Positions 1 to 19,952 of a stretch of DNA of 40,178 nucleotides are shown here, piece by piece. The notes under the pieces were generated by a model. That model made no database searches. It had not been told where the DNA came from and saw only the letters and a program-made list of their open reading frames with translations. The stretch's first letter is position 1, and each line of letters opens with the position of its first letter. The stretch covers positions 1 to 40,178 of the forward strand of contig JABCTC010000033.1 of NCBI GenBank assembly GCA_018238545.1, written 5' to 3'. This stretch comes from Candidatus Heimdallarchaeota archaeon. GTDB lineage: Archaea; Asgardarchaeota; Heimdallarchaeia; Heimdallarchaeales; Heimdallarchaeaceae. A program made the position numbers and the translations under genes.

Positions 1-654
1 ATGTTGATGTTTCTCTCTCCACTCTTTGGTTAGTTCTCCTGTCATAGCAGCTTTAAGGACAGCTTGACGATATTGATTCAGTAATAGTTTGGTTTGTTGA
101 AGGGAAGCTAGACCTGAATCAAGTTGAGAGAAGAGTTCATCAAGTTTAGAAACAATATCATTTTGTTCTTTTAACGAAGCTAGAGGAATAAGAATACCCC
201 CTAGTTTTTTTGCATTTACATTGGGTTGTGCACTACCAACCTTTTTTTCAGTTATTTGTTTCCAGTATAATGGTGATTGAAAAAAATAGTAAACATAATT
301 ATTTAGTATATTTTTTAGTAAAACTAATCTTATAAGATATGAAGCAAAAATAGCTGTAGGAAATTGTTCTTTAATTAAATAACTTTTTCCAACAGTAGCG
401 CCTGTTCTTGCAAAAACTAAGTCTCCAGGATTTAAGATATACTTCTTAATTTCAGTTTCACTAATTTTACAAAATGGAACAGCCTCCCAGTTTACGTTGT
501 TATTTTGAATATCTGTAATCCTTAAGTATTTAGGTCCTTTTGGGTCAGAAGATGCTTTAGCTGTATAACCATAATGTATCCTTTCTGAAATATCCTTAAT
601 TTTTTTCCAATTCCAATCTTTTGGAAGATCGGTTCTTTGTAAATCGCTGCTCAT
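1..654 (-). CDS. hsdS: Type I restriction-modification specificity subunit (partial, runs off window start)
   Basis: Not in the ORF track; translated by hand from ATG 654, which overlaps the hsdR stop (ATGA): MSSDLQRTDLPKDWNWKKIKDI...YLRITDI...GDLVFARTGATVGKSYLI...FASYLIR...AQPNVNAKKL...IPL..LKEQ..IV..LD..F...L.QYRQAVLKAAMTGELT. These are typical HsdS TRD and conserved coiled-coil motifs. Confidence 0.95.
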   Translation of the reverse strand, partial: MSSDLQRTDLPKDWNWKKIKDISERIHYGYTAKASSDPKGPKYLRITDIQNNNVNWEAVPFCKISETEIKKYILNPGDLVFARTGATVGKSYLIKEQFPTAIFASYLIRLVLLKNILNNYVYYFFQSPLYWKQITEKKVGSAQPNVNAKKLGGILIPLASLKEQNDIVSKLDELFSQLDSGLASLQQTKLLLNQYRQAVLKAAMTGELTKEWREKHQH

Positions 655-3389
655 CCTACTAGAACCTCATTAAGTTCAACAATTATCTCTTTTAATTTAT
701 CACCGAAAATTTCAGAAGTTTTGTAGATTCCACCTTTTAGATTGAATGGTACTTCTTGAAAGTCTTCTTTTTCTATGCTTACTGATGTTTTTATGTGCTC
801 TTTTATCATTTCCAACCATTCAATCTGTTCTTCTGTGAATCCTTCTACTATTATCTGTTGATCTATTAACCATTCTTGAAATCTTTTATCTACTGTGTCT
901 TCAAATGGTTCAAGTATTTTCGTTTCTTCCAAGGCAAATCTGATCAAAGCAACGATATTAGTTAACAATTTCTCTGGTCTTGCTCCTCTTACTTTGGCTA
1001 TATCTAATTGTTTGTAGGCTTCCCACAATCTTTCCGTAGTTAAATTATAGGGTGGGGATCTTATTGATTCTGCGAGCTCTTTTATTTGTTTGAACGTTAA
1101 ATGTCTTTGACCAAATGGTCTGTTGTAAATAATTTCTAATGCTGAAATTTCATCCTTCTTTTCTAGTAGAAATTCATTGAACGTCTTAACTAATTTTTGT
1201 GCTTGTTGTGTTGTATAACCAACCTTTACTACTTCATCAATACTTTGAACATCGATAATTTGTTCTCTTCTTTCTTTAGTTTCTATCAGAAAATTGCGTA
1301 ATTTTGGATCATCAAAGGGAGAACAAGCAATATCAGTCATCTTGTTTTTTACTTCTTCTATTTGTTCTTTTGTTGGGATTTCTGTTTCAAACTCTTCTCT
1401 TGCCGTATCTATATTTTTATCTATATTTATCGAATCTAATAAATTCTTTATTATTTTGGTAATCGGTTTTCCTGCAATTTGCTGAAACCTTTGCCGATCA
1501 TCACTATCAAGCTTGTTATTCAATCTTGATAATCTACTTGCTAAGCTGCTTAAAGAGTCATCATCTCTTGGACCAAGGATTATTTGATTAAGCAAATTCT
1601 TGAAAGACACCAATGGTTTTCTTTCAAGTGGTTGTGTATCAGTTTTATCTTTTAATGTAACTCCAATGGCGTCAACTATTACATAGTGTGTTTTAAACGC
1701 AGCGTCTGGGGTGACAGCTTTAAGATCGTTTGGATCTATTGTTCTTGTTCCTCTTCCTTTCATCTGTTCAAAGTATACTCTAGATTTAACAGCCCTCATA
1801 AATAAAAGGCATTCCAAAGGTTTTATGTCTGTTCCAGTCGAAATCATATCTACTGTGACAGCTATTCTAGGATTGTAAGAATTTCTAAATTCCTTAATTA
1901 GATTCTCCGTTTTTCCTGCACTTCTATACGTGATTTTTTTGCAAAACCTATTTCCCTTGCCAAATTCCTCTCTTACTATGTGAACAATATCTTCTGCATG
2001 AGAATCATCTTTGGCAAAAACAACTGTCTTTGGTACTTCTTCCCTTCCTGGAAAAATTTCTGTAAAGAGCTTACTCTTGAAAGTTTTGATAATTGTTCTA
2101 ATTTGATCCTTTGCGACTACCTTTCTATCTAATTGAGATGCATCATATTCCAACTCTTCATCTAGTAATTCCCATCTCTCTTCTCTTGTAAGCTTATCTC
2201 TTTTGAATACTCTTTTCTTCGCTTCTACCTTGCTTCCTTCTTTTGTTATTTTTGTCAATATTTGATATATCTCACAACCTACATTTACGTTATCAGCTAC
2301 AGCCTCTTCATGACTGTACTCCATTACAAGATTTTTATTAAAAAATCCGTATGTATGTTTAGCAGGGGTAGCAGTTAACCCAATAATAAATGAATCAAAG
2401 TACTCTAAAACCTGCCTCCATTTATTGTAGATAGACCTATGACATTCATCAACAATTATGAAGTCATATGTTTCAATGGGTATATTTGAATTGTATTCTA
2501 TATCGACAGGACTCTCATCACCTGCTGAATAAGTAAAAAGAGATTGATTTTCTAAGTCTTCATCTATGTCTTCTTCCCCCTTTAACATTGAGAAGAAACG
2601 TTGAATTGTTGTTATGGTAACTTTACTTATTTTATCAAGAGCATTGCTTTTTAATAATTGAATATTATATAATTCCTTGAATTTTCTTCCATCATCAGGA
2701 GTAACATATTGTTCAAATTCTCGTAGAGCTTGTTCTCCTAAAGATCTTCTATCGACTAGAAACAATACTCTTTTTGCTTTCGCATATTTTATTAATCTAT
2801 ACACGGAGCTAACTGCAGTATACGTTTTTCCGCTTCCTGTTGCCATTTGTATTAGCGCTCTAGGTCTAGCTTCTGAAAATGACTGTTCTAAATTCTTAAT
2901 TGCTTTTACTTGACATTCTCTTAGTCCTTCAAGATTAAGTGGTGGTAATTCTTTTAACCTTGCACGTAGAGTATTTTCTTCTTGAAGAAGTCTAGATAGT
3001 TCTTCAGGTCTGTGAAAATTGAATAAGGATCTTGACCTAGGTTCTGGGTCTCTTTCATCTCTGAAATAGATTTCATAACCATTGGTTTCATAAGCAAAAG
3101 GAACTGGGTTCGAATAAACGATATTCTCATCAATACCATCCAAATATCTAGCTGATTGTCCTGAGACACCACTTAAGGTATAACCAGCTTTCTTTGCTTC
3201 AACAACTCCAACTGCTTTCCTATCGATAAATAATAAATAATCCGCATAACCTGTTGTTAGAGGATATTCTCTGATTGCTATCCCTTCTCCTGCCCTAAAA
3301 TCAAATTGTTTGTAATCTTGAATAACCCACCCAGCTTCTTCTAGTTTTTTATCTATTAAGATTCTAGCTTCTTGTTCAGGATCCACCAT
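651..3389 (-). CDS. hsdR: Type I restriction endonuclease subunit R (EcoEI/EcoAI-like)
   Basis: Nuclease motif ADYLL...VEAK; Walker A ATGSGKT; DECH; motif VI QMKGRGTR; EcoEI-R-like C-terminus (F...Q..WL..I..HI...PF...GG). Confidence 0.95.
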   Translation of the reverse strand: MVDPEQEARILIDKKLEEAGWVIQDYKQFDFRAGEGIAIREYPLTTGYADYLLFIDRKAVGVVEAKKAGYTLSGVSGQSARYLDGIDENIVYSNPVPFAYETNGYEIYFRDERDPEPRSRSLFNFHRPEELSRLLQEENTLRARLKELPPLNLEGLRECQVKAIKNLEQSFSEARPRALIQMATGSGKTYTAVSSVYRLIKYAKAKRVLFLVDRRSLGEQALREFEQYVTPDDGRKFKELYNIQLLKSNALDKISKVTITTIQRFFSMLKGEEDIDEDLENQSLFTYSAGDESPVDIEYNSNIPIETYDFIIVDECHRSIYNKWRQVLEYFDSFIIGLTATPAKHTYGFFNKNLVMEYSHEEAVADNVNVGCEIYQILTKITKEGSKVEAKKRVFKRDKLTREERWELLDEELEYDASQLDRKVVAKDQIRTIIKTFKSKLFTEIFPGREEVPKTVVFAKDDSHAEDIVHIVREEFGKGNRFCKKITYRSAGKTENLIKEFRNSYNPRIAVTVDMISTGTDIKPLECLLFMRAVKSRVYFEQMKGRGTRTIDPNDLKAVTPDAAFKTHYVIVDAIGVTLKDKTDTQPLERKPLVSFKNLLNQIILGPRDDDSLSSLASRLSRLNNKLDSDDRQRFQQIAGKPITKIIKNLLDSINIDKNIDTAREEFETEIPTKEQIEEVKNKMTDIACSPFDDPKLRNFLIETKERREQIIDVQSIDEVVKVGYTTQQAQKLVKTFNEFLLEKKDEISALEIIYNRPFGQRHLTFKQIKELAESIRSPPYNLTTERLWEAYKQLDIAKVRGARPEKLLTNIVALIRFALEETKILEPFEDTVDKRFQEWLIDQQIIVEGFTEEQIEWLEMIKEHIKTSVSIEKEDFQEVPFNLKGGIYKTSEIFGDKLKEIIVELNEVLVG

Positions 3390-3537: not shown

Positions 3538-6500
3538 TTAAGTTAATTTGTTTATCCAATCATAGAATTGCCTGTAATTAGTTTTTTTTACTTTTTTGCT
3601 TATTCGTGTGCTTTTCTTGTTTTTGTTTGGACTCTTAAGTAGTTCCCACTGTCTAATTTTCTCTTCAAGAACTTCCATTGTGTCAGATTCTAATACGTTA
3701 TTAACAATAATATCCTTGTTTTTTGTTAAAGCTCCAGGTAAAAACATTTTAGTTGTCAATAGCTGATCTAATTGCTCTGCTTTCCGCAGTGTCAATTTAT
3801 TTGTATGATTACATATCACTGCTTGCTTTTTCTTGTCCCACTTCATTTCATAAACTGTGAGGGATTCCCCATCAAACTGGTTTGATAGGTAGAGTTTTTC
3901 CTTTTGTAAAGAATCATTCACTTCTAATTCTCCTATTTGTTGATCATCATTCACATTTGTTTTAATCATGTCTAGAAGAATCTCTCCGTATGAGGAATGT
4001 GCATGATATATGAAATGAAATATCAGAGCAATTTCAAGAGCTACTGAAAGCTCAGATAATGAGCTTCTAGAAACCACTAAATTTCTAGTAATTGGTACAA
4101 TTTTTCCTTTTCCTAGGAATTCTTGTCTATATCCTTCTCTAATGCTCATCCCTTTGGGTAATTTCTTCTTGAGTAATCTCTCTCTTTTGAATTTTTGTGC
4201 AACAGATAAGCATTTTAACAGTAACTCTAATGATTCACTAACTCCTGCAATAATGTTGTTATCATTCATCTTTTGATTGATTGAAACTGTTAGTTTGTGG
4301 TTCTTCATTTGTAAAATCTTAATGTAATTTCTTAAGATTATCTCATTAATTATTATTTGCCTTTTCCATGTATCATTGTAGATAAATTCCTTAAACGAAA
4401 TTGAGTCATATTTTCCGTGGATTTTTCTATTTACGATATTTGGAAATGAGTTGTATGGGGCATAATACAGTTTTACAGATGAACGCTGCTTCAAGATATT
4501 AATCATGTTATTATCAAGCATCTTCTCGAGTAATTCATTTCTTCTTATATCTTTTAAGACAATTTCTTTAATTACATGACCCTTCCTTCCATCGAATCTT
4601 CTTTCAGATAATTGATGGCTTAAATGTTTCAATTGTTTGGTTGCCTTTTTACATACTCTATCTAGTAATTTCCGCATTTTTTCATTAAACAAGAAATACT
4701 CTAATTGTGAATTATAAGGCGATGTTATGCCTAATTTGAATATTTTTTGTATTCTTTGTACTAAAATTCTTAGCTTCTTTCCTACAAAACCTTTCTTCCA
4801 GAATTCTAAGATTTTGTTATTGGCTAGATTGTTATTACTAATAAATTTAGATACAAATTCGCGATTTGTTTTTCTTCTTATGATTACCAAATCTGTGCTT
4901 TCCATTGCAACAGATCTCCACTTCTTATAATCGTCAATAACATCTCTAATTTGAGATTCTTCCTCGCAATTATTTAGCACTTTACCATCAAAATGAATTA
5001 ACCCTTTATTAACGGAGTTAAAAGCTTCTTTGTAGTTTTTCAGTATAGTTAGTATCTGTTTTTCATTTCCTTGAAGATGATCAAATGACCAGAAATGGGT
5101 TGTAAACAGCGGTCTAATTATCGGTAAACCATTTTCAAGTAGTGGAATAATTTCATTTTTCTTATTGATTGTCGAATTTGTGAAACTCACAAGCCTTGGA
5201 TAGTATGTAATAATTTCTTCGTAATAATCAATTGTATCATCAATTTTTGTTGATAGTTTTGATAATCTGAACATTCCTTTCACTGCTCCAACTTTCTTAA
5301 GACACTCGAATACTTTTGAAAGTAGACCATTTTCTTTTAATGTCCTATTTTCTTTAGTAATTAATTTTCTAATTCTTTTTAGTTCCACTATTGCTAATCG
5401 CGCGTCAACAAAATCGATTATTGGAATATGGTTATCCTTAAATGAAAATAAAAAAACAGTTGGAAGTTGACCTGTTGTTACGAACCTAAACATTACCTCC
5501 TTTACACTTTTTATAGTCTCGATTGGTGGTTTGTTTGAGGTACTAGGATGTATTCTATTAATGCCTCGTGAAAAATAAAAAGCTCCTGGAAAGATTTCCT
5601 TTTCATCTGAAATTGTTTTCTCAAATATTTGTTGCTTTTTTTCATCAATGAAAGTGAGTACAAACACTTCTTCTATGTTGTTTCTCTGTATCTTGATTGG
5701 TTCCCAAAAACTTGCTATGCTCAGTAATCTATCCTTAAGGGAATCTCTTATCCAGCTCCCTCTCGCGTTTCTTATGAAAAAATCATAAATAACTAACTCA
5801 GAAGTTGAAATAGTGTTTTTTTCATTTATTGTTACTTTTTGCTCTTTTCCAAATGTACAGTTAGACGTTTTCCAGTAGAGTTGCTCCATTTGAACATCTA
5901 TGTTTGGATTTCTCTTTATTCTTTTATAACTGTTAATTAAGTCCTCATAAACTATATATCTTATCTCATCTTTTTTTGTATTCTTATTCATAAAGCCTAT
6001 AACAACTAACTCTTCTGTCTTCTTATCTAATTTCTCAATCTTAGAATAGGTTGAGAAAGCAAATTTGATGCTTTTCTTACTGCTTATAACATTAAAGTGA
6101 CTTTGCCCTAAGACTTCAGCAATTATGTGAAGATTAACACTTGGATAATATCCATTAGGAATATGTAATTTTGTTTTGAAAGTACTATCCCTCATATAGG
6201 TTGAAATTGGAAAAATTGTGGTGAATTTCTCATCTGTTGAAGTGGTTTCAATAAAAACGATTTTCTGGTAAATGTGGTCAAATACTAAACTTATCAATTG
6301 ATTTTTTACTGCACTTTGTCTCGTTCTAGAACCACTAATTTCATTTGAAATTTTGTGATTATTTATTGCCGATCTTCTTAAATTAGTGAAACCTTGACCA
6401 TAGATATACATTGATAGAATTTTCTTCGTTGTCGCCAATGCTTTACCATATGAATTTTTTTTCTTTATTATTTTTGTGAAATCTATAATTTTTCCATTAA

Positions 6501-9500
6501 CAATAATCGGAAGCCTTAACACGCCTAACAATAGCTGCTTTGCTATGCCTGTGGACTTTAGACTATAGCCATTAATAAGTTTAGAAATTCCACTTTGTTT
6601 GTAATTCTTACTTTCTATCTTTCCATTATCTAAATCTAAATCTGTTCCATATCTAGAATCCAAGAAACGGTAATAGCTTTTTAAATCGGTTATTTCAATA
6701 TTTAAAGATGAATCGGTTAGTTCTAGTGATTTTCTATCTAAAGAAATTATTCCTTTTTCTATATCAAAGAGAAAGACACCATTTTTTGTATTAACTGTGA
6801 CATTGTTGCCATTTAATTCCAGTTTCTTCTGCACTATATTTCCAAGGAAAGGAAAATCTATGACACCAAAAACGTAACTTAGTTTAGTTTGAAACTCTTT
6901 CCATTTCTTGATTTTATCTTCTAAATTATTACAGTAGCCTAATTTCGTGTTGCAAGCATAGATATAGCGTTCCAGTGAAAAGATAATATCAAAGAAAGGT
7001 GTTTCTCCTTTCAGTGTTTGTAACCCCCCTTCATTTCCTTTAGCTTCAACTAAATCATGATATACTCTCCCTATCTGCAAAAATGCTTTATTTTCAAAAC
7101 TGTGTTCCTTTATCTGATCTGATATCTGTGTAAATTCTTCAAATAAAAATTTAAATCTCAGTAATTTTTCTATATCTCCTTGATTCTTGGTTGCATCTGT
7201 AAGGAAATTTAGTACAAAATCTATTATGTTGTCGGAATAGAAACTTTGTTTATTATCTCTAAAATTCTGTAGAGATGATTTAATCTCATAACTTCTCAAA
7301 TCTAAGTTGTCGGTTTGATCTATTTTTGGTATCATTACCTCAGAGATAAAGAAAATTACTTGTGATAAGGCATGAGTATTCAGTAACCCCTTCTCATTCT
7401 GAAGAATTTGTGCAATATTGCCAGTTTCATCCATTGGTATGATGGTTAAGCCTTCTTCAAGCTCATTAATTCTTGTTACTATGTTTTCAGTTTCTATATT
7501 ATTCTCTTGAAGAGTCGAATTGATGATGATGTTTTCGATTTCACTATCAGAATTTTTGATATAAATCTGTTCTAGCTCATGATATTTTCCTAGTCTTGGA
7601 AGTTCATTTGATATTTCTATTAACAATCTATGTGCAAAGACCTTTTCTATGTTCAGAAATTCTGCAACTATCGTGGAAGAAAGCTGGATTCCTGGTTTGG
7701 AATCAGAAATTATCATATGTTTCAGTCTACTTTTTAGTTTGTCTCTTTCTTCAGTCGATATTTCAGACTCGTTTATTGAGTTTGATTCCTTTGGATTGCT
7801 TAAACTAGTTTTAGTAACTTGTAATGTTCCAGTTTTGAAGAAGTTATTGAGAAACAATTTGAACTGTTTGTCTTTTATCTTTCCTAACCATGTGAACATC
7901 ACTATTACTGCTATTGTTATTATCGGTAGAACAACATTCCAAAAACCTTCAAAATTAACTGAATTAAGCTTAATAAATATTAAACTACCTATAAAAGAAA
8001 GCACTAGAACTATCTTTACTGCTATGCTAAGGAATTTAGTTATTTTGTAAAAATCCTCATAAAAGGTGGTACTGTAACTTAAGTATAGTGTCGAAAAACC
8101 TGTAAAAGACAGCGCATATATACAAATGATGAAAATGTAATAACACCATTTTCCTCCTTCTAAAAACAGAATGTTTTCCAAATTGTTTTGTGCAATTGTA
8201 ATTACCTCATTTGTGATTTGAAATAGCACAATTGTCTTCAACACAATTTCTCCTAATGATAAAAACAATAAAGTACTCTTCAGAATAGACTCCGATATCA
8301 GTAAGATTTTCTCTGACACGAATTTCCTAATTCTTCCACGTCTTATATTTGGAGAATCAAACTGTATTTCTGTGATACTTTCTGTTGCTTCATTTTTCAT
8401 TCTTTTGCTATTTGACCATATTTGACTTATCAATATAGTAAGTGCAAGTAGAAGAAAACCAAATTCAAGATAGATAATTGTTGATTTTGATGGATTGAAA
8501 ACAATATCATTTATTTTCTCCTCATTTGGTGTATCAAATGGATTTGTGATTGTAACATTGGAATTCGAAATGCTTGTTATCAGATACTTCAGATTTTCTA
8601 AAATAACGGTATGACCATCCCCGTAAATAGATATCACAATAGTTACTTCATATGACTTTGAAAACAGCATTACATTTTTTGCAACCCAAATATTTTTTTC
8701 TTCCTTGATTTGTTCATCTATTGAAGTTTGAAAATTGAGTTTAAGCTGAATATCTACTTGTCTAACGGGTAAACCTTGCTCTGTTGTTAGGTCAAATGAT
8801 AGATTTATACTACAGTATAATGAATTAGGTACAAGTATAAAATAATCCATGAAAGTCAGAATAAGAGGACTTAAGAGAGGTGTAATATAATTTTCACTCT
8901 CTACCAATTCTCTCTCCAAACTTACCTCTTCGGACAACTCATGAATGGGATTAATAGTAATCTTACTTGTGTTAAGGATGTAAAATGCTCCTTGGCCAGT
9001 TGTTGTTCCTTGAATCGTCATAACAATGGAATCAAAAAAATTAGTGACAATTTTTACTCCATTCAAAGATTGTGGTGAATTCGTCTGAGAAGATTCAGAA
9101 ATTTCTCCACTTTCTATTGTCTCTGCCCCTATAAGTATTTCATAAGAAATGAACGGTTCAACAACCTCGCCGATGCATCCATAGTTAATAGAATACTCTA
9201 ACACTTGGTTTTGGTTGGTTGATAGTGGTTTTAGTGAAGAAAGATCAAAAGAATAATCTATCTCACAATTTTCCCAGGTAAACCAACACAAAGTATTTTC
9301 AGGTAATTGATCTCCGAAGTTAACTCCATTTCCCTTTGTCCGTATTGCGCTTATTATAATTTTGTCAGTACAATATCCAACACTGAAGTAAATCGTAATG
9401 ATATTAATTCCTGGAGAAATAGAGAGTAAGAATGTTTCTTTTGCCACTTGATTCGATCTAAAATCACATGAAGCAACAATCTTTCCATTTACTTCAATTT

Positions 9501-10179
9501 CAAAAAAACGCTCAAGAGAAGAGAAATCGCTAGAGGAAAAAGAAGTTGTAAAATTCAATTTTTCAAAATTAAGCGTGTTATTAATTACAGTTTGAATACT
9601 TCTGGTTCTAAGGGAAAATGGTCCCACTTTAAATTCTAACCAGTCTGGTATTACTGGAAACTGCGTTGGATATTCTGATAGTACTGACGGGATAATCTCT
9701 TCTACTTGTGTAGAACTTCGTATTATTAAGGATCCAGCATGATGCTGATAATCTGTTTGAGCCTCACAAATTATCGTTAAATACATGTTCCCTTCAAATT
9801 CATCTGGATAGCTGAATGCTTGTGTCTTGTTGTGCATGAGAGTGTCTTGAAACATGGTCTCAATTTCGAAAGTAATTTCTGTTTGATCAAAGATGAAAGT
9901 TACCTTTATTCCCTCACTATTACTACTATAGTCCACTGTTTCGAAAAAGAGAATTAAACTATTAAAGGAACCTAGCCTAAGATTTGAGACATCTATTACG
10001 AATTCTTCATGGGAAAAAGTAGAATTATATTCAAACACTATGTCAGATGGAAGAAGAATAGTACTATCAACGATATTATTATTGGAGCAAGATATGTTTG
10101 AATTTACAAAAATACAATTAATAGATATAAGGTTAATTGTGAAAAAAACAATTATTAGACCAAACCTCTGTTTACTCAT
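3538..10179 (-). CDS. Giant (2213 aa) membrane protein of unknown function: signal peptide, ~530-aa beta-rich ectodomain, ~5 TM helices, winged-helix-like segment and ~1300-aa cytoplasmic region
   Basis: Uninterrupted 6.6-kb ORF with a hydrophobic N-terminus and hydrophobic segments at ~8415-8480 and ~7880-8290. No catalytic motif recognised. Confidence 0.85.
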   Translation of the reverse strand: MSKQRFGLIIVFFTINLISINCIFVNSNISCSNNNIVDSTILLPSDIVFEYNSTFSHEEFVIDVSNLRLGSFNSLILFFETVDYSSNSEGIKVTFIFDQTEITFEIETMFQDTLMHNKTQAFSYPDEFEGNMYLTIICEAQTDYQHHAGSLIIRSSTQVEEIIPSVLSEYPTQFPVIPDWLEFKVGPFSLRTRSIQTVINNTLNFEKLNFTTSFSSSDFSSLERFFEIEVNGKIVASCDFRSNQVAKETFLLSISPGINIITIYFSVGYCTDKIIISAIRTKGNGVNFGDQLPENTLCWFTWENCEIDYSFDLSSLKPLSTNQNQVLEYSINYGCIGEVVEPFISYEILIGAETIESGEISESSQTNSPQSLNGVKIVTNFFDSIVMTIQGTTTGQGAFYILNTSKITINPIHELSEEVSLERELVESENYITPLLSPLILTFMDYFILVPNSLYCSINLSFDLTTEQGLPVRQVDIQLKLNFQTSIDEQIKEEKNIWVAKNVMLFSKSYEVTIVISIYGDGHTVILENLKYLITSISNSNVTITNPFDTPNEEKINDIVFNPSKSTIIYLEFGFLLLALTILISQIWSNSKRMKNEATESITEIQFDSPNIRRGRIRKFVSEKILLISESILKSTLLFLSLGEIVLKTIVLFQITNEVITIAQNNLENILFLEGGKWCYYIFIICIYALSFTGFSTLYLSYSTTFYEDFYKITKFLSIAVKIVLVLSFIGSLIFIKLNSVNFEGFWNVVLPIITIAVIVMFTWLGKIKDKQFKLFLNNFFKTGTLQVTKTSLSNPKESNSINESEISTEERDKLKSRLKHMIISDSKPGIQLSSTIVAEFLNIEKVFAHRLLIEISNELPRLGKYHELEQIYIKNSDSEIENIIINSTLQENNIETENIVTRINELEEGLTIIPMDETGNIAQILQNEKGLLNTHALSQVIFFISEVMIPKIDQTDNLDLRSYEIKSSLQNFRDNKQSFYSDNIIDFVLNFLTDATKNQGDIEKLLRFKFLFEEFTQISDQIKEHSFENKAFLQIGRVYHDLVEAKGNEGGLQTLKGETPFFDIIFSLERYIYACNTKLGYCNNLEDKIKKWKEFQTKLSYVFGVIDFPFLGNIVQKKLELNGNNVTVNTKNGVFLFDIEKGIISLDRKSLELTDSSLNIEITDLKSYYRFLDSRYGTDLDLDNGKIESKNYKQSGISKLINGYSLKSTGIAKQLLLGVLRLPIIVNGKIIDFTKIIKKKNSYGKALATTKKILSMYIYGQGFTNLRRSAINNHKISNEISGSRTRQSAVKNQLISLVFDHIYQKIVFIETTSTDEKFTTIFPISTYMRDSTFKTKLHIPNGYYPSVNLHIIAEVLGQSHFNVISSKKSIKFAFSTYSKIEKLDKKTEELVVIGFMNKNTKKDEIRYIVYEDLINSYKRIKRNPNIDVQMEQLYWKTSNCTFGKEQKVTINEKNTISTSELVIYDFFIRNARGSWIRDSLKDRLLSIASFWEPIKIQRNNIEEVFVLTFIDEKKQQIFEKTISDEKEIFPGAFYFSRGINRIHPSTSNKPPIETIKSVKEVMFRFVTTGQLPTVFLFSFKDNHIPIIDFVDARLAIVELKRIRKLITKENRTLKENGLLSKVFECLKKVGAVKGMFRLSKLSTKIDDTIDYYEEIITYYPRLVSFTNSTINKKNEIIPLLENGLPIIRPLFTTHFWSFDHLQGNEKQILTILKNYKEAFNSVNKGLIHFDGKVLNNCEEESQIRDVIDDYKKWRSVAMESTDLVIIRRKTNREFVSKFISNNNLANNKILEFWKKGFVGKKLRILVQRIQKIFKLGITSPYNSQLEYFLFNEKMRKLLDRVCKKATKQLKHLSHQLSERRFDGRKGHVIKEIVLKDIRRNELLEKMLDNNMINILKQRSSVKLYYAPYNSFPNIVNRKIHGKYDSISFKEFIYNDTWKRQIIINEIILRNYIKILQMKNHKLTVSINQKMNDNNIIAGVSESLELLLKCLSVAQKFKRERLLKKKLPKGMSIREGYRQEFLGKGKIVPITRNLVVSRSSLSELSVALEIALIFHFIYHAHSSYGEILLDMIKTNVNDDQQIGELEVNDSLQKEKLYLSNQFDGESLTVYEMKWDKKKQAVICNHTNKLTLRKAEQLDQLLTTKMFLPGALTKNKDIIVNNVLESDTMEVLEEKIRQWELLKSPNKNKKSTRISKKVKKTNYRQFYDWINKLT

Positions 10180-14833: not shown

Positions 14834-15730
14834 ATGGTAAAACAGATTTACGAAACTCTACACACTGAACAGTCTATGTTGGATATAACTCCAGAGTTAG
14901 AACAAAAAGTTCACAAAATGCTCTTAGCTACTGAAAGACAAGTTCCAAACTTCTGGGAGATTGATACAACTGACAGTTTCTATGCCCCTGTAGATGATGG
15001 TGAAATCAGAGTATACCATTTTAAGCCTAATAATCCAATTTCAAAACGTCCTCTAGTTTTTATTCCTGGATGGGGAGGAACTGAAATAGGATTTATGGAT
15101 TTTTACGAAGTCATCCATGATAAGGTCGAGTGTTATTATATCGAAACTCGTGAAAAGAGAAGTAGCAGATTGGATAGAAAAAGAGCCAAAATAGATATGA
15201 GTCAAAAAGCTAAAGATATTCAAGATGTGATTAACTACCTTGAATTTGGCAAGAAAGATTTTGTTCTCTATGGCACTTGCTGGGGCGGATCAATAATTTT
15301 ACAAGGTTTAATTGATGAAGTAATAGACGCTCCAACTATTATTACTAATGATCCTATGCATACTCTATGGTTTCCGAAATGGTTTCTTAGATTTGTTTCA
15401 CCCATATTACCTGTTTTTGTAGTTGAACTCATTAGGTCCATAGTTAAACGAATACAGTTGTGTGGTATGAAGGAAGAAGTTCAAAGAAAAAGAGCTGAAA
15501 TTTTTGCGGATAATGCTGAAATTTGGAAATGGAAAAGAGCAGCTGACTCAGTAAAGGATTTTGAGCTCTTTGGTAAAGTTTCTGATATAACAAAGGAAGT
15601 TTTTGTAACCAATGGTACTAAAGATAAGATCCATAATCAACTAGATTACCCAAAAATCGCTGCTGAACTTCCCAATGGAAGATTCATTTACATGAAGACA
15701 GATGAATCTAGAAGAGAACGCACGTTATGA
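14834..15730 (+). CDS. Alpha/beta-fold hydrolase, 3' end interrupted by the mobile element (last codons come from the element)
   Basis: LVFIPGWGG oxyanion strand, GTCWGG nucleophile elbow, GTKDKIH acid. The sequence from 15716 is shared with the repeat at 40079 and supplies the TGA. Confidence 0.82.
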   Translation: MVKQIYETLHTEQSMLDITPELEQKVHKMLLATERQVPNFWEIDTTDSFYAPVDDGEIRVYHFKPNNPISKRPLVFIPGWGGTEIGFMDFYEVIHDKVECYYIETREKRSSRLDRKRAKIDMSQKAKDIQDVINYLEFGKKDFVLYGTCWGGSIILQGLIDEVIDAPTIITNDPMHTLWFPKWFLRFVSPILPVFVVELIRSIVKRIQLCGMKEEVQRKRAEIFADNAEIWKWKRAADSVKDFELFGKVSDITKEVFVTNGTKDKIHNQLDYPKIAAELPNGRFIYMKTDESRRERTL

Positions 15731-15806
15731 AACTTGGTCAAACTTTCCAGAGGCGGTCTAACCGTCGTTTAAGTGGGTCCCCTCACGTGCGTTGAGGGGA
15801 AGAGGA
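15716..15806 (-). ncRNA. Putative omega/reRNA scaffold of the TnpB-like protein (guide would continue into the flanking DNA)
   Basis: Conserved non-coding 91 nt between the stop codon and the element end. Contains an 8-bp hairpin (15778-15800) whose 7-nt loop is complementary to 15718-15724 (pseudoknot), and a second hairpin at 15752-15766. Confidence 0.65.
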
Positions 15807-17714
15807 TCATAGAGGCGGAAGAGGTGTACCTGAGAGAGAAGCGATATTGTGCGCGGCATTAATATGAGTATTAACTTTCCGTCCGCATTTAGTGCAAGGG
15901 GCAAGATCATACTGACCTTGAAGACGAACTAACGTTCCTCCACAACCATAATGAACAGAACTAGTATGATAAGGACGAACAGACTCTAATTGCACTTGAT
16001 AACCTAAATCTTGAGAAGCTAACCAGACAGCTTTCTGGTAAATGAAGAGATTATCAGGCATGGTGTAAATAGCTTTAGCTAATGCACCCTTAGTACCTGA
16101 GGGGTCAACAGTTAACTGCTCAATTTTCAAGGTTTTACACTGTTTTTTCACCAAAACTGCTGCAAGAAGGTGGGGGAGAAGACGAGTAAGCTCGCGAATG
16201 ATTCGCATACGGCGAGTATAAACTCTATTAAGCTCTCCCTGCAACTTACAGAAACCAAGAGTGTCTCGAGCTTTGCGTTTGCGCATCAATCCCCGATGGA
16301 GTTCAGGGAGAACTTTAGCAGTAAGGTGGGTATAACGTTCAGCTAGAAGCAAGATGTCTGGAGGGAGAGAAACAGAGGTGTTGAATGCCAACATATGTAC
16401 TCCTAAGCGATTGATATCTAAACCCAGAATAGCTTTCTTCTGACTTGAGATAAGCGGGAGATAAGTGTGGAGAAGGGTAGAGGAGTGGAAACAATCCATT
16501 GCTCCCTCGAGAACTACATCCACTCGAGGTTTGTAACTAGGTGCTTGACCACTGCTAACTTGGAAAAGTTTGATCTCTGCACCATTATGAATATACTCTC
16601 GTATTTTGGAGGGAAAAAGTGTTTTTGCAACAAGCTTCTTCTTCCCTTTCTGGGAAAAACCTAGTTCAGTCCCTCCTTGCTTCTTAATTTGTGTTGTTAG
16701 TGTTTTCGCATTCCCTTGTCGGGTGATAACATAATCTTTTTTCATTAACAATTTTACTGGTAATCTTCCTTTCTTTTTTCTTTTAAATGGTAAAGGAACA
16801 ACTTTTGCCACTGGGAGACCTTTAAGTAACTGAGGGACACTCTGCATGAAATGGTCAAAGAGTGTGAAAACAGTGATCAGCCTGATAGCTGAAAAAAGTT
16901 TTCGGGAAGGCTTCCCAAGAGTTTTTGCTAGTTGTTCTGCTAGTATTTTGAGACTTTTCCAACGAGAAAGTTGGGGACTGTTAATCCACGAGGCGAGAAA
17001 AGGGATAACGACTGCTTGCTCTTTTTTTAGTAGTTGGAGTTTGGCTAAAAAGGCTTGTTGCCTCTTGGTTATTTGGGGAATAGTAGTGAATTCATTAGTG
17101 TAAAAGAACAGTGCATCATCTATCGCTTGTACTATTGCTTGTTGTGTTGTAGAGGTGAGGAAAGAATTATGGTTTAAGTTATTAAGATGATAAGTTGCTT
17201 TCTTTTTCTTTCTCCAATATCCATCTGCTTGTTGTCTGGTGCTGGTTAAGAGGTTGATAACGTACCTTCGTTTAAGTTTCCAATAGTTCCCTAAACTGCT
17301 TTCAGCATAAGGTGATCTACCAAAGATCATCCATTCTACAAGTTGTTGAGGGTTCTTGGCAAGGAAATTGAGCAACCCTTGCACTTTTTGTTCCTTATCT
17401 TTTTTCCCTTTGATTGCAATATGCAACCAATGGAAAGCACTTTCTGCTATGTTAGGACTCTTCCCCACTTCTTTGCATAGTTGGCGGGTGAAGAACCCTT
17501 CCTTAGGGTTGGATTTGTATAATGTTTCTGCTTTCTTTACTATTTTCGGAGAAAGGAGGAGCAGTTGCTGTTCTTCTAGCTTTCTTATCCTTCGGTTGAT
17601 CTCTTCTCGTTGTTGCTGGTCTACACATTTTAGCGCCACTTGGTAGCTTCGCATCACCGTCTTTGAGTGAGTGTTGACAGCTACTTGTGCTTTCTTTGTT
17701 GCTTGTGAGACCAT
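15807..17714 (-). CDS. tnpB: Large TnpB/Cas12-like RuvC + zinc-ribbon protein (~635 aa), RuvC-III Asp replaced by His
   Basis: RuvC-I ILGLDINRLG (D436), RuvC-II LKIEQL (E535), VRPYHTSS-HYGC...CTKCG zinc ribbon, NTHINAAHNIA (H620; ORF-track numbering). ATG 17714 is preceded by GGTGA-5nt, so the track's GTG 17723 is probably part of the RBS. Confidence 0.85.
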   Translation of the reverse strand: MVSQATKKAQVAVNTHSKTVMRSYQVALKCVDQQQREEINRRIRKLEEQQLLLLSPKIVKKAETLYKSNPKEGFFTRQLCKEVGKSPNIAESAFHWLHIAIKGKKDKEQKVQGLLNFLAKNPQQLVEWMIFGRSPYAESSLGNYWKLKRRYVINLLTSTRQQADGYWRKKKKATYHLNNLNHNSFLTSTTQQAIVQAIDDALFFYTNEFTTIPQITKRQQAFLAKLQLLKKEQAVVIPFLASWINSPQLSRWKSLKILAEQLAKTLGKPSRKLFSAIRLITVFTLFDHFMQSVPQLLKGLPVAKVVPLPFKRKKKGRLPVKLLMKKDYVITRQGNAKTLTTQIKKQGGTELGFSQKGKKKLVAKTLFPSKIREYIHNGAEIKLFQVSSGQAPSYKPRVDVVLEGAMDCFHSSTLLHTYLPLISSQKKAILGLDINRLGVHMLAFNTSVSLPPDILLLAERYTHLTAKVLPELHRGLMRKRKARDTLGFCKLQGELNRVYTRRMRIIRELTRLLPHLLAAVLVKKQCKTLKIEQLTVDPSGTKGALAKAIYTMPDNLFIYQKAVWLASQDLGYQVQLESVRPYHTSSVHYGCGGTLVRLQGQYDLAPCTKCGRKVNTHINAAHNIASLSGTPLPPL

Positions 17715-17742
17715 CGTCTTCACCTATTTATCCACAGAATGG

Positions 17743-17750
17743 TATATAAA
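17743..17750 (-). promoter_or_regulatory. TATA box (TTTATATA) of the tnpB-like gene
   Basis: Archaeal TATA consensus ~29 bp upstream of ATG 17714, with the RBS GGTGA at 17724-17720. Confidence 0.6.
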
Positions 17751-17813
17751 CGCGAAGAAAAGTCAGCTAGGAGGAGTTTTTCCTCATAACAAGATTGGGT
17801 AAGTTTCTGCTCA

Positions 17814-19952
17814 TCAGTTGACTACGGTCATTGCATTAATAATAACAAGCAGAGAAGCACCAAGATCACCTATAAGAACAGCTAACCATAGTAAAGAATC
17901 GCCGAAGAAACTTCCAATAGCTGCAATTGAAACGCTTAGAAACACTAATACAAAAAATGAGAGTTTAATGAAGAGTGAGAGAAAAATATTAATTCTAATC
18001 GTTCTTTGGGTTTCTTTGCTAAGTTTGAACAAATATGGGAGACTGAATAAATCATCAGAAGCAAGCACTATATCGGCAGTCTCAATCGCAATTGCTGTAC
18101 CAGCTACCCCCATCGCTATTCCAACATCAGAAAGAGCTAAAGCTGGAGCATCATTTATTCCATCTCCAATCATTGCAATTGATTGACCATTATCTTTAAC
18201 TTCTTTGACATATTGCATTTTATCTTCAGGAAGTAATTCTGCTCTATAATCAATCCCTAACTCGCTAGCAATTTTTGAAGCTACCTCCTCATTATCTCCA
18301 GTGAGCATTACAATATTAGTTATTCCTATGTCTTTCAGAGCTTCAATAGACATTTTTGTTTCTAATCGCAGTTCATCAGACATATGTATGTGTGCTATTA
18401 CTTTCTCATCAGTTAAAACATAACTAACGATGCTTTCTGATTCCTCGCAATCCAAATCGCATGATTCAAGTGTTAAGACCTTATCAACCAGTGCTTCATT
18501 TCCAAGATAGAAATTTGTGTCTTTTCTTGTACCCTTAATTCCCATTCCGGGGAGAATCTTGACATCTTTATAACCAAACAATCTGGAATTGTTCCTTTCG
18601 CCAAGATCTATTATAGCTTGAGCAATCTTATGCTCTGAATGGTATTCTAGACCATAAGCTATTTCAATTATTTCTTGTTTTGAATAACCTTCCAAAGCTT
18701 CTACTTTATAGGCACGCAAATTTCCTGTGGATAAAGTGCCGGTTTTATCCATAGCAACTGTATCGACATCAGAAAGTGCTTCTAGAAATTTTCCACCTTT
18801 GATCAATACTCCACGTTTGGAGGCACGTGTTATAGCAGTAACTACAGTGATGGGAGTTGAAAGAACTAGTGCACATGGGCAGGATATAACCAAAATAACC
18901 AAACTTTGATACAACCAGTAACGAAGAGTTTCTGTATCTATTGGAATATTAAGAAATACCCCTGGTACAAGGAAAACTAACAATGCGACACCAACCATAA
19001 TAGGTGTATAATATTTTGCGAACCTCTGGATAAACAATTCTCTTTTTGACTTCTGTTGTTCTGCATCTTCAATAAGCAGTCTTATTCGGGCAACAGTAGA
19101 TTCTTGTGGCATTCTAGTAACTCGGATTATAATATAACCATCAAGATTTATAGAACCAGAAAAAACTTGATCTCCAACGGTTTTGACTATTGGTGTTGAT
19201 TCTCCTGTGATTGGACTCTGATCAACATTAGTATTGCCCCAGTCTATTTTCCCATCTATAGGTATTTTTCCTCCAGGTTTAACACTCACTCTATCTCCTA
19301 CAATTAAATCTTCTAAGGGTACAGTTTCATGCTTTTTACCTTTTATCAGTCTTATTGCTGTCGGAGGAGTCAAATCCATTAAAGATCGTATTGATTGCCT
19401 CGCTTTATCCATAGAAAAAGCTTCCAACAATTCAGCTAAAGTAAATAGGACGATGATCTCTGCTGCTTCTTCCCATTGTTCAATAATCATTGCACCAATT
19501 ATAGCTAATACCATTAGTAAATCGATATCAAATGTTCTAGCTCTTAGTGAGTTGAATGCTTTTGTATAAACCGGTATCCCTCCTACTACAATTACAGGAA
19601 TATAGAACAGTGGGTGATAATGTTGTACATTTAGAGAATCTATTATTAATGCCGTCACTAAAAATATTGCTCCCACAATGAAGAAAATCAAGTTTTTGTT
19701 GTGTTTGAGATTAAAAAATGATTTTTGCACATAGGTGTGATCAAATCCATAACCGGCTTTCTTGATGATTTTAATAATATCTTTCTCAGAAGTATTTTCA
19801 CTGTTATATTCAACGATGAGTTTTGTTGATACAAGATTAAGTTTAACATCTTTGATACCTAGAGTATTCTCTAAATTTTTTCGTACCTTGGCTACGCAAT
19901 TTGCGCAATCCATTCCAGCTACTACTCCACGTAACACAGGCATATTATTCAA
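17814..19952 (-). CDS. cadA: Heavy-metal P1B-type ATPase (Zn/Cd/Pb, ZntA/CadA-like); stop codon lies inside the inferred element end
   Basis: N-terminal HMA GMDCANC, TGES, SCPCAL, DKTGT, MLTGD, GDGINDAPAL, and Lys/Asp in the last TMs (IKL, GDLG). Confidence 0.92.
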   Translation of the reverse strand: MNNMPVLRGVVAGMDCANCVAKVRKNLENTLGIKDVKLNLVSTKLIVEYNSENTSEKDIIKIIKKAGYGFDHTYVQKSFFNLKHNKNLIFFIVGAIFLVTALIIDSLNVQHYHPLFYIPVIVVGGIPVYTKAFNSLRARTFDIDLLMVLAIIGAMIIEQWEEAAEIIVLFTLAELLEAFSMDKARQSIRSLMDLTPPTAIRLIKGKKHETVPLEDLIVGDRVSVKPGGKIPIDGKIDWGNTNVDQSPITGESTPIVKTVGDQVFSGSINLDGYIIIRVTRMPQESTVARIRLLIEDAEQQKSKRELFIQRFAKYYTPIMVGVALLVFLVPGVFLNIPIDTETLRYWLYQSLVILVISCPCALVLSTPITVVTAITRASKRGVLIKGGKFLEALSDVDTVAMDKTGTLSTGNLRAYKVEALEGYSKQEIIEIAYGLEYHSEHKIAQAIIDLGERNNSRLFGYKDVKILPGMGIKGTRKDTNFYLGNEALVDKVLTLESCDLDCEESESIVSYVLTDEKVIAHIHMSDELRLETKMSIEALKDIGITNIVMLTGDNEEVASKIASELGIDYRAELLPEDKMQYVKEVKDNGQSIAMIGDGINDAPALALSDVGIAMGVAGTAIAIETADIVLASDDLFSLPYLFKLSKETQRTIRINIFLSLFIKLSFFVLVFLSVSIAAIGSFFGDSLLWLAVLIGDLGASLLVIINAMTVVN

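What the first reader, a model, noticed from the sequence alone, without database searches (positions are those of the whole stretch)
15696..15806. Compact pseudoknotted guide-RNA scaffold with a sharp scaffold/guide boundary
Seen on the sense (-) strand after the stop: UCCCCUCA-ACGCACG-UGAGGGGA hairpin, then a CGGU-UAG-ACCG hairpin, then a terminal CGUGCGUUC. The 7-nt loop is exactly complementary to the terminal CGUGCGU; copy 2 keeps 6 of these pairs. Conservation stops right after GUUC. Established: TnpB reRNAs end in a pseudoknot at the transposon end and take the guide from flanking DNA. Inferred guides: UCUUCUAGAUUCAUCUGUCU (copy 1) and AAAGAUGAAGUAUCAACAUU (copy 2), both antisense to the interrupted genes. 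Caveat: two stem positions are G-U on + but A-C on -, so a role on the opposite strand or as DNA is possible.
Basis: partly seen in the sequence, partly recalled or inferred. Interest (0 to 1): 0.74.

Follow-up and report, generated by a model that had tools for sequence, protein, structure and literature searches.

The report
Asgard IS607 guide-RNA scaffold, second module
This is the folded RNA tail that most likely guides the DNA-cutting protein of a jumping gene in an Asgard archaeon; such guide RNAs are a known kind, but here a second conserved RNA hairpin lies in the middle of the protein's own gene and is also kept by gene-less mini-copies, which hints at a two-part guide RNA.

Summary
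The feature is real. It is the right end and probable guide-RNA (omegaRNA) scaffold of an IS607-family transposon of Heimdallarchaeia. The pseudoknot covaries across 36 copies (4 of 7 pairs compensatory) and in lineages with about 31% TnpB identity; G-U bias favours the minus strand. Empty sites give a host target motif ACYGT with a GT core, not the usual GG. The 638-aa protein has a TnpB/Cas12f fold with a D-E-H RuvC. New here: a hairpin plus CCCUCAGU motif inside the tnpB coding sequence (16871-16827) is frozen at synonymous sites, its hairpin covaries in divergent lineages, and ~390-bp gene-less mini-elements carry the same motif fused to this scaffold. That suggests an extended or two-part guide RNA; its role is inferred. 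No RNA data were available. This copy lacks tnpA and has mismatched flanks. The scan had already noted the family, the pseudoknot and the mini-elements on other DNA; I found no note of the mid-gene link.

The parts
17824..17828 (-). Host-derived target motif ACCGT (family consensus ACYGT); its GT is the inferred crossover core and the motif is the predicted TAM
   Evidence: 40 of 48 left ends are preceded by ACCGT or ACTGT, with no conservation further out; an empty allele in a relative keeps ACCGT once; also seen before putative left ends in ~31%-identity lineages (by eye); Logan contigs end exactly at 17824
17782..17823 (-). Transposon left end; tnpA has been deleted just after it in this copy
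   Evidence: Left-end profile; autonomous copies carry about 600 bp of tnpA here
17743..17750 (-). Archaeal TATA-like box TTTATATA, shared with the gene-less mini-elements
   Evidence: Sequence; conserved in mini-elements; promoter function is inferred
15807..17723 (-). Oversized TnpB-like ORF, 638 aa (635 from ATG 17714); RuvC D436, E535, H620, invariant D557, HxxC-CxxC zinc site
   Evidence: Pfam PF07282 below cutoff; AF2 pLDDT 88; best structural matches Cas12f and ISFba1/ISDra2 TnpB, Z 12-13.6, rmsd 4.6-5.2 over 335-358 residues; residue census in 96 homologs
16827..16871 (-). Second RNA module inside the tnpB coding sequence: RCA-stem-UGU hairpin (16865-16837) followed by CCCUCAGUUA (16836-16827); weaker constrained patches span about codons 253-340
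   Evidence: Peak of synonymous conservation, 0.89 against a mean of 0.57, 0/2000 permutations; 6/6 against 2.3% single-codon use; top of 31,601 hairpin placements in 16 divergent homologs; the 13-mer occurs 14 times in the genome, always in tnpB or a mini-element
15778..15800 (-). Scaffold hairpin P1 with the pseudoknot loop ACGCACG (15792-15786)
15730..15770 (-). Scaffold long stem: AAAC/GUUU (15770-15767 with 15733-15730) and GGUUAGAC/GUUUGACC (15763-15756 with 15743-15736); the two CAAGTTT repeats may double as TnpA sites (inference)
15718..15724 (-). 3' pseudoknot strand CGUGCGU; its last GT is the right-end core and the true scaffold/guide boundary
15698..15717 (-). Predicted guide of copy 1 (host DNA from a hydrolase gene); its cognate left flank lies on contig C102
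40081..40167 (-). Second right-end scaffold copy, cut by the contig end; predicted guide 40080-40061

Best explanation
The feature is the right end of an IS607-family transposon and the core scaffold of its TnpB guide RNA. SHOWN by sequence comparison: the element (17823-15718 here; about 2.7 kb with tnpA in autonomous copies) sits after host ACYGT with GT at both junctions; an ~83-nt fold (P1, a 6-7 bp pseudoknot, a long stem) is under pairing selection on the minus strand and ends at that GT. INFERRED from characterised IS607 systems: serine TnpA excises the element as a circle and rejoins the flanks; a transcript from the TATA box runs through tnpB and past the right end; TnpB binds the scaffold, uses the next ~15-20 host nucleotides as guide, and cuts the empty site (ACYGT + guide match), so that repair from an occupied copy restores the element. 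The occupied site is spared because TGYGT stands where ACYGT is needed. INFERRED, weaker (about 0.45): the working RNA is larger than these 83 nt and includes the hairpin-CCCUCAGU module in the middle of tnpB, as a TnpB loading or processing element, looped out or supplied as a separate piece; gene-less mini-elements fuse the two modules into one ~240-nt RNA and borrow TnpA and TnpB in trans.
For: IS607 transposase upstream in autonomous relatives, NF033518 at 164-169 bits against a cutoff of 110. TnpB/Cas12f fold. Covariation and minus-strand G-U bias. Sharp boundary in 27 copies. Five reconstructed empty sites align to homologs without a gap at the junction, and 4 elements restore ORFs of 100 or more codons on each side at that register, against 1 each for offsets -1 and +2 (both the chimeric window copy) and none for +1 or -2. 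ACYGT motif. Published IS607 model: TAM equals the TnpA target motif, the scaffold ends on the core dinucleotide, and a pseudoknot was tested as required (10.1101/2023.11.20.567912; PMC10711439). D436, E535 and D557 in 96/96 and H620 in 94/96 homologs suggest a maintained active site. Second module; mini-elements in 12 of 24 genus genomes and a second genus, fold z = -4.6.
Against: No transcript or cleavage data. His replaces the RuvC-III Asp; such variants are catalogued and presumed active (PMC10691335), but the passages I read report no activity for one, so the protein may bind without cutting. Sequence models match only the last ~55 residues, below cutoff. The pseudoknot strand overlaps the DNA end, so part of its conservation may be for TnpA. 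No partner for CCCUCAGU was shown. One mini-element (L127) lacks the module.
Confidence: 0.85

Rival explanations
1. Same element and scaffold, but the His-type TnpB does not cut double-stranded DNA. It binds the empty site or processes RNA, for example to recruit TnpA or block transcription.
For: H620 at the RuvC-III Asp position in 94/96 homologs. Some orthologs process RNA but show no dsDNA cleavage (PMC10278001). Enlarged helical N-terminal lobe.
Against: D436, E535 and a further Asp (D557) are invariant. Conserved rearranged sites are argued to stay active (PMC10691335). The family is mobile with variable guides, as expected for homing rather than regulation.
Confidence: 0.25
2. The mid-gene module is a safety catch rather than part of the scaffold: its single-stranded UCCCUCA pairs with the 3' strand of P1 (UGAGGGG) and keeps the unprocessed mRNA inactive until TnpB trims it.
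For: A 7-bp helix is possible in nearly all mini-elements, with two wobble-compatible changes. There is precedent for an inhibitory, complementary mRNA region in AmaTnpB (PMC10278001).
Against: No compensatory change. Its duplex energy ranks only about 70th of 1894 coding windows. Divergent lineages keep the hairpin but not CCCUCA, although most keep a similar P1. The local P1 wins in the predicted fold.
Confidence: 0.2
3. The mid-gene motif acts as DNA, as an internal TnpA site or enhancer; its reverse complement resembles the AACTGA motif of the left end.
For: 6-8 of 8 matches to left-end positions 6-13 in many copies. Retained by mini-elements that need TnpA in trans.
Against: The stem varies freely in sequence while staying paired, with G-U on the sense strand. 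The hairpin persists in homologs with no tnpA nearby that share one tRNA-Cys locus across three data sets. The left-end motif varies where the module does not.
Confidence: 0.15
4. The right-end structure is only a DNA signal for the transposase and no guide RNA is made.
For: It lies at the transposon end and holds two CAAGTTT repeats that mirror left-end motifs.
Against: IS607 transposases act on double-stranded DNA (PMC10711439). Compensatory changes, a pseudoknot and G-U bias on the transcribed strand are not expected of a dsDNA site.
Confidence: 0.05

Closest known systems
IS607 TnpB omegaRNA/reRNA systems: ISXfa1 (PMC10711439), CboIStron (10.1101/2023.11.20.567912), ISFba1/RAGATH-18 (PMC11061315, PDB 8IAZ)
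   Same: MerR-HTH serine TnpA followed by tnpB; scaffold at the right end, closed by a pseudoknot next to the guide; scaffold ends on the core dinucleotide; target motif outside the left end; no target duplication beyond the core.
   Different: Core GT and motif ACYGT, against GG cores and G-rich TAMs (TGGG, GGG, AGGAG, GAGGG). TnpB of about 640 aa against about 390. D-E-H RuvC. ~83-nt non-coding core against ~150-190 nt, with no Rfam match. A conserved RNA module 1.1 kb upstream inside the ORF.
RuvC-III-rearranged TnpB clades (RIIIr, Asp to His) of Altae-Tran et al. 2023 (PMC10691335)
   Same: His at the RuvC-III Asp position; some rearranged clades are mostly archaeal.
   Different: RIIIr-4 is described with an RHH/MazE partner, not seen here. 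Clade assignment was not tested.
PATE-like gene-less IS200/IS605 elements that keep an omegaRNA (PMC10055086)
   Same: Both ends plus scaffold, no protein, multi-copy, dependent on proteins in trans.
   Different: IS607-type ends; an added ~170-nt structured 5' domain whose invariant core matches a motif in the middle of tnpB.
AmaTnpB mRNA cis-inhibitory region and self-processing (PMC10278001)
   Same: [quoted passage not shown]
   Different: There it was found in one ortholog next to RuvC-II. Here the element is conserved family-wide, lies upstream of RuvC-I, and is kept in non-coding derivatives.

Membership tests
IS607 family | Serine-recombinase TnpA with N-terminal HTH upstream of tnpB | tested here: met
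   In autonomous copies sharing these ends: NF033518 above cutoff, MerR + Resolvase. Deleted in the window copy.
IS607 family | Insertion by crossover at a dinucleotide core, with no terminal inverted repeats or longer duplication | tested here: met
   GT at both junctions; empty sites keep ACYGT once and align without a gap.
IS607 family | Core is GG, as in the characterised members | tested here: not met
   Core is GT: T in 48/48 and G in 43/48 left flanks, GT in 27/27 right ends. Treated as a variant, since GG is typical rather than defining.
IS607 family | Circular dsDNA intermediate and TnpA-catalysed excision | not testable with these tools
   No right-end/left-end joint was listed in four Logan contig sets; contigs drop rare forms.
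TnpB omegaRNA (OMEGA) systems | Conserved structured scaffold with a sharp scaffold/guide boundary at the element end | tested here: met
TnpB omegaRNA (OMEGA) systems | Pseudoknot between a 5' hairpin loop and the nucleotides next to the guide | tested here: met
   4 of 7 pairs compensatory in the main clade; further changes in divergent clades.
TnpB omegaRNA (OMEGA) systems | Protein with TnpB/Cas12 architecture (WED, REC, RuvC, zinc site) | tested here: met
   AF2 model; top matches Cas12f 8DZJ (Z 13.6, rmsd 5.1, 358 aligned), TnpB 8IAZ (13.2, 5.2, 343) and 8H1J (12.0, 4.6, 335).
TnpB omegaRNA (OMEGA) systems | Canonical D-E-D RuvC triad | tested here: not met
   D436-E535-H620, plus invariant D557; matches the catalogued rearranged type.
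TnpB omegaRNA (OMEGA) systems | RNA expressed across the boundary; guide- and TAM-dependent DNA cleavage | not testable with these tools
   Needs RNA-seq or biochemistry.
IS200/IS605 (Y1 TnpA) | HUH Y1 transposase as partner | tested here: not met
   The transposase between these ends is a serine recombinase.
Known Rfam RNA families (e.g. RAGATH-18, sotRNA, HEARO) | Covariance-model match | tested here: not met
   No match near a gathering score for the element or the mini-elements.
Type V CRISPR (Cas12f) | CRISPR array and tracrRNA | tested here: not met
   No array in the repeat scan of the window; the gene lies between transposon ends.

The most novel reading that the evidence does not exclude
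The guide RNA of this Asgard IS607 TnpB is bipartite: a tracrRNA-like 5' module is written into the middle of the nuclease's own coding sequence, about 1.1 kb from the right-end core, and the two parts work together (looped out or after self-processing) on an enlarged D-E-(D)-H nuclease. Gene-less mini-elements are natural single-guide fusions of the two parts.
Probability: 0.35. Interest if true: 0.85.

Novelty: new variant of a known kind. Interest (0 to 1): 0.62.

Why it matters
The pseudoknotted right end alone is a new member of a known class. Three things raise it. (1) It defines a testable RNA-guided system in Heimdallarchaeia, close relatives of eukaryotes, with a predicted TAM (ACYGT) and a non-GG IS607 core. 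(2) The His-type RuvC is catalogued but seems little tested, and here the scaffold, boundary and TAM are all specified. (3) A conserved RNA element inside a tnpB ORF, shared with non-coding mini-elements, was not found in the papers I could search. If it is part of the guide RNA, tests using only the 83-nt core would fail, and the natural ~240-nt mini-element RNA is the ready-made single guide. It would also bear on how TnpB RNAs became split into tracrRNA and crRNA.

Tried and rejected
(1) Joining the window's own flanks as the empty site: rejected; relatives show the left flank continues into the C63 flank and the right flank belongs with C102. The long open frame at offsets -1/+2 is most likely the antisense ORF at 17818-18186. 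(3) Plus-strand reading: rejected by G-U bias. (4) Single-sequence folding is uninformative: z -1.2 and -0.15. (5) Target motif chosen by pairing with the scaffold's ACGGU: not supported; divergent lineages keep ACCGT but their scaffolds lack ACGGU, and the one ACAGT case is too little. (6) Second sites for the guides: no ACYGT + guide match in the genome extended much beyond the 8-nt seed searched; ACYGT is only about 4% below Markov expectation. (7) Expression: no RNA holder listed; the four runs laid were DNA contigs, none spanned the element and no circle joint appeared. None of this is evidence either way. (8) Rfam: nothing. (9) Literature: no held paper with Heimdallarchaeota + TnpB or Asgard + TnpB + reRNA; the library lacks most subscription papers. 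(10) Misassembly against real recombination for the mismatched flanks: unresolved; sister contigs break in a collapsed 124-nt stretch, but the window is not identical there. (11) The first regular-expression pull of mini-element cores returned nothing; the later one selects for the motif, so the unbiased evidence is. (12) The scaffold model found no match outside two genera among 82 class genomes, although divergent scaffolds exist.

Full report
CONTEXT. The flagged stretch follows the stop codon of a 638-aa ORF (17723-15807, minus strand) with a weak TnpB zinc-site match. Named homologs come from Candidatus Heimdallarchaeota; the protein family is concentrated in the genome's own family and is rarer elsewhere in the phylum (48 of 300 genomes). 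The genome holds 27 copies of the right-end sequence.

THE OBSERVATION. P1, its loop ACGCACG and the complementary CGUGCGU are present as described. On 36 copies the structure P1 + pseudoknot + AAAC/GUUU + GGUUAGAC/GUUUGACC is 96.3% paired, with 9 compensatory pairs, 4 of them in the pseudoknot; no shuffle reaches this and slid controls give 18-42%. The shuffle keeps no phylogeny, but the changes fall at different positions in different lineages (for example ACACACG/CGUGUGU, AUGCACG/CGUGCAU, ACGCUCG/CGAGCGU), and homologs with 31-44% protein identity have the same loop-terminus pairing with other letters. The last A-U pseudoknot pair fails in 15 of 36 copies, so the loop needs slack and the core is 6 bp. 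Conservation stops after GT at 15718, not after GUUC; the guides are 15717-15698 and 40080-40061.

THE ELEMENT. Copies with the same ends carry an IS607 transposase before tnpB; autonomous elements are about 2.7 kb, and the window copy (2106 bp) has lost tnpA. Left ends are preceded by ACCGT (26) or ACTGT (14) in 48 cases, and ACCGT also precedes putative left ends in lineages with ~31% TnpB identity. The motif is host DNA: a relative's empty allele reads ATG-ACCGT-TGG. Reconstructed empty sites that keep one GT align without a junction gap in five cases and restore long ORFs in four. In characterised IS607 systems the TnpA target motif equals the TnpB TAM and the scaffold ends on the core dinucleotide (10.1101/2023.11.20.567912; PMC10711439). 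By that logic the TAM is ACYGT and the core GT, unlike the GG cores and G-rich TAMs reported. The window's two flanks do not belong together: the ATPase flank continues in contig C63 and the hydrolase flank in C102. This is a misassembly or a real recombination between copies (searches do not decide), so copy 1's guide would target the empty hydrolase locus.

THE PROTEIN. The AlphaFold model (pLDDT 88) matches Cas12f and TnpB best. D436, E535 and D557 are invariant in 96 homologs and His stands at the RuvC-III Asp position in 94. Asp-to-His variants are catalogued and presumed active (PMC10691335); the passages I read give no direct activity for one. Whether D557 faces the active site was not checked.

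THE SECOND MODULE. Many right ends belong to gene-less elements of 350-400 bp: left end, the same TATA box, a ~170-nt structured region, then this scaffold. They occur in 12 of 24 genus genomes and in a second genus, fold far better than shuffles (z -4.6), show compensatory changes and match no Rfam family. Across subfamilies the constant part is UUC-RCA-stem-UGU-CCCUCAGU. The same motif lies in the tnpB coding sequence at 16871-16827. The 13-mer occurs 14 times in the genome, always in tnpB or a mini-element, against 0.07 expected. Codons 285-299 are the peak of synonymous conservation in the gene (0.89 against 0.57; 0 of 2000 permutations); all 6 highly degenerate invariant residues there use one codon, against 2.3% of 132 elsewhere. 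In 16 divergent homologs, which were not used to pick the site, this hairpin ranks first of 31,601 placements, with mixed pair types in the upper stem; CCCUCAGU itself is confined to the main clade. The hairpin persists in homologs with no tnpA nearby, which points to a TnpB-related RNA role rather than a transposase site. What it does is not shown. A loading or processing element that is part of an extended or two-part guide RNA seems most likely (about 0.45); a cis-inhibitory switch like that of AmaTnpB (PMC10278001) about 0.2; a DNA site about 0.15; other roles the rest.

COMPARISON AND NOVELTY. It works like, and by the tests possible here belongs to, the IS607 TnpB OMEGA systems. It departs in the GT core and ACYGT motif, protein size, D-E-H site, short non-coding core, and the mid-gene module. 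Searches found no held paper on this family. The scan's own notes had flagged the oversized TnpB, the pseudoknot and the mini-elements on other DNA; I found no note linking the mini-element RNA to the tnpB coding sequence. These notes are not independent support.

VERDICT. Observation partly confirmed, reading partly supported. New variant of a known kind. Interest 0.62: about 0.35 for the pseudoknot alone, raised by a fully specified test system and the unexplained conserved RNA module inside the nuclease gene. No expression or activity data were available.

Noticed in passing
G000 C68:51223 region; L029:487; L067:3476; L065:3679; L152; L066:3145; L097:4389: A divergent group of these TnpBs (39-44% identity, no tnpA seen nearby, scaffold usually ending GA) has 'guides' that resemble a sequence 100-150 nt downstream (13-17 of 20, against 10-12 in eight other homologs). 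In four cases that sequence is the antisense strand of a tRNA gene (Cys three times at what looks like one shared locus, Pro once). Possibly domesticated TnpBs with fixed, tRNA-directed guides, or relics of insertion into tRNA genes.
   Followed up: partly
window 14834-15730 (+) and 17814-19952 (-): Both neighbouring genes (alpha/beta hydrolase, P1B ATPase) are cut by the element and take their stop codons from it; their missing parts lie on contigs C102 and C63, so this contig join is chimeric or rearranged.
   Followed up: yes
G000 C43:687-774: One right end has the pseudoknot loop replaced by its reverse complement, which breaks the pseudoknot: a loop inversion or an assembly error.
   Followed up: no
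window 17824 and 15717 in runs X1, X6: Logan contigs end exactly at these element boundaries, as expected if occupied and empty alleles coexist in the samples.
   Followed up: no
window 16865-16837 and homologs: In divergent homologs the mid-gene hairpin ends in ACTGT, a perfect target motif, whereas the main clade has AGTGT; a self-targeting or autoregulatory role is not excluded.
   Followed up: no
L098, L099 (mini-element 3' half of the 5' domain): GGAG/CUCC and AGGAA/UUCCU pairings cross the GCGCA/UGCRC stem, suggesting a further pseudoknot; other subfamilies (L122, L129, L170) have a different domain here.
   Followed up: partly
window 3538-10179 (-) and 651-3389 (-): A 2213-aa ORF with no Pfam match lies next to a type I restriction-enzyme R-subunit-like gene.
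   Followed up: no
window 16115-16095: This copy's tnpB has a second segment complementary to P1 (best duplex in the gene), but it is not conserved in other copies and is probably chance.
   Followed up: partly
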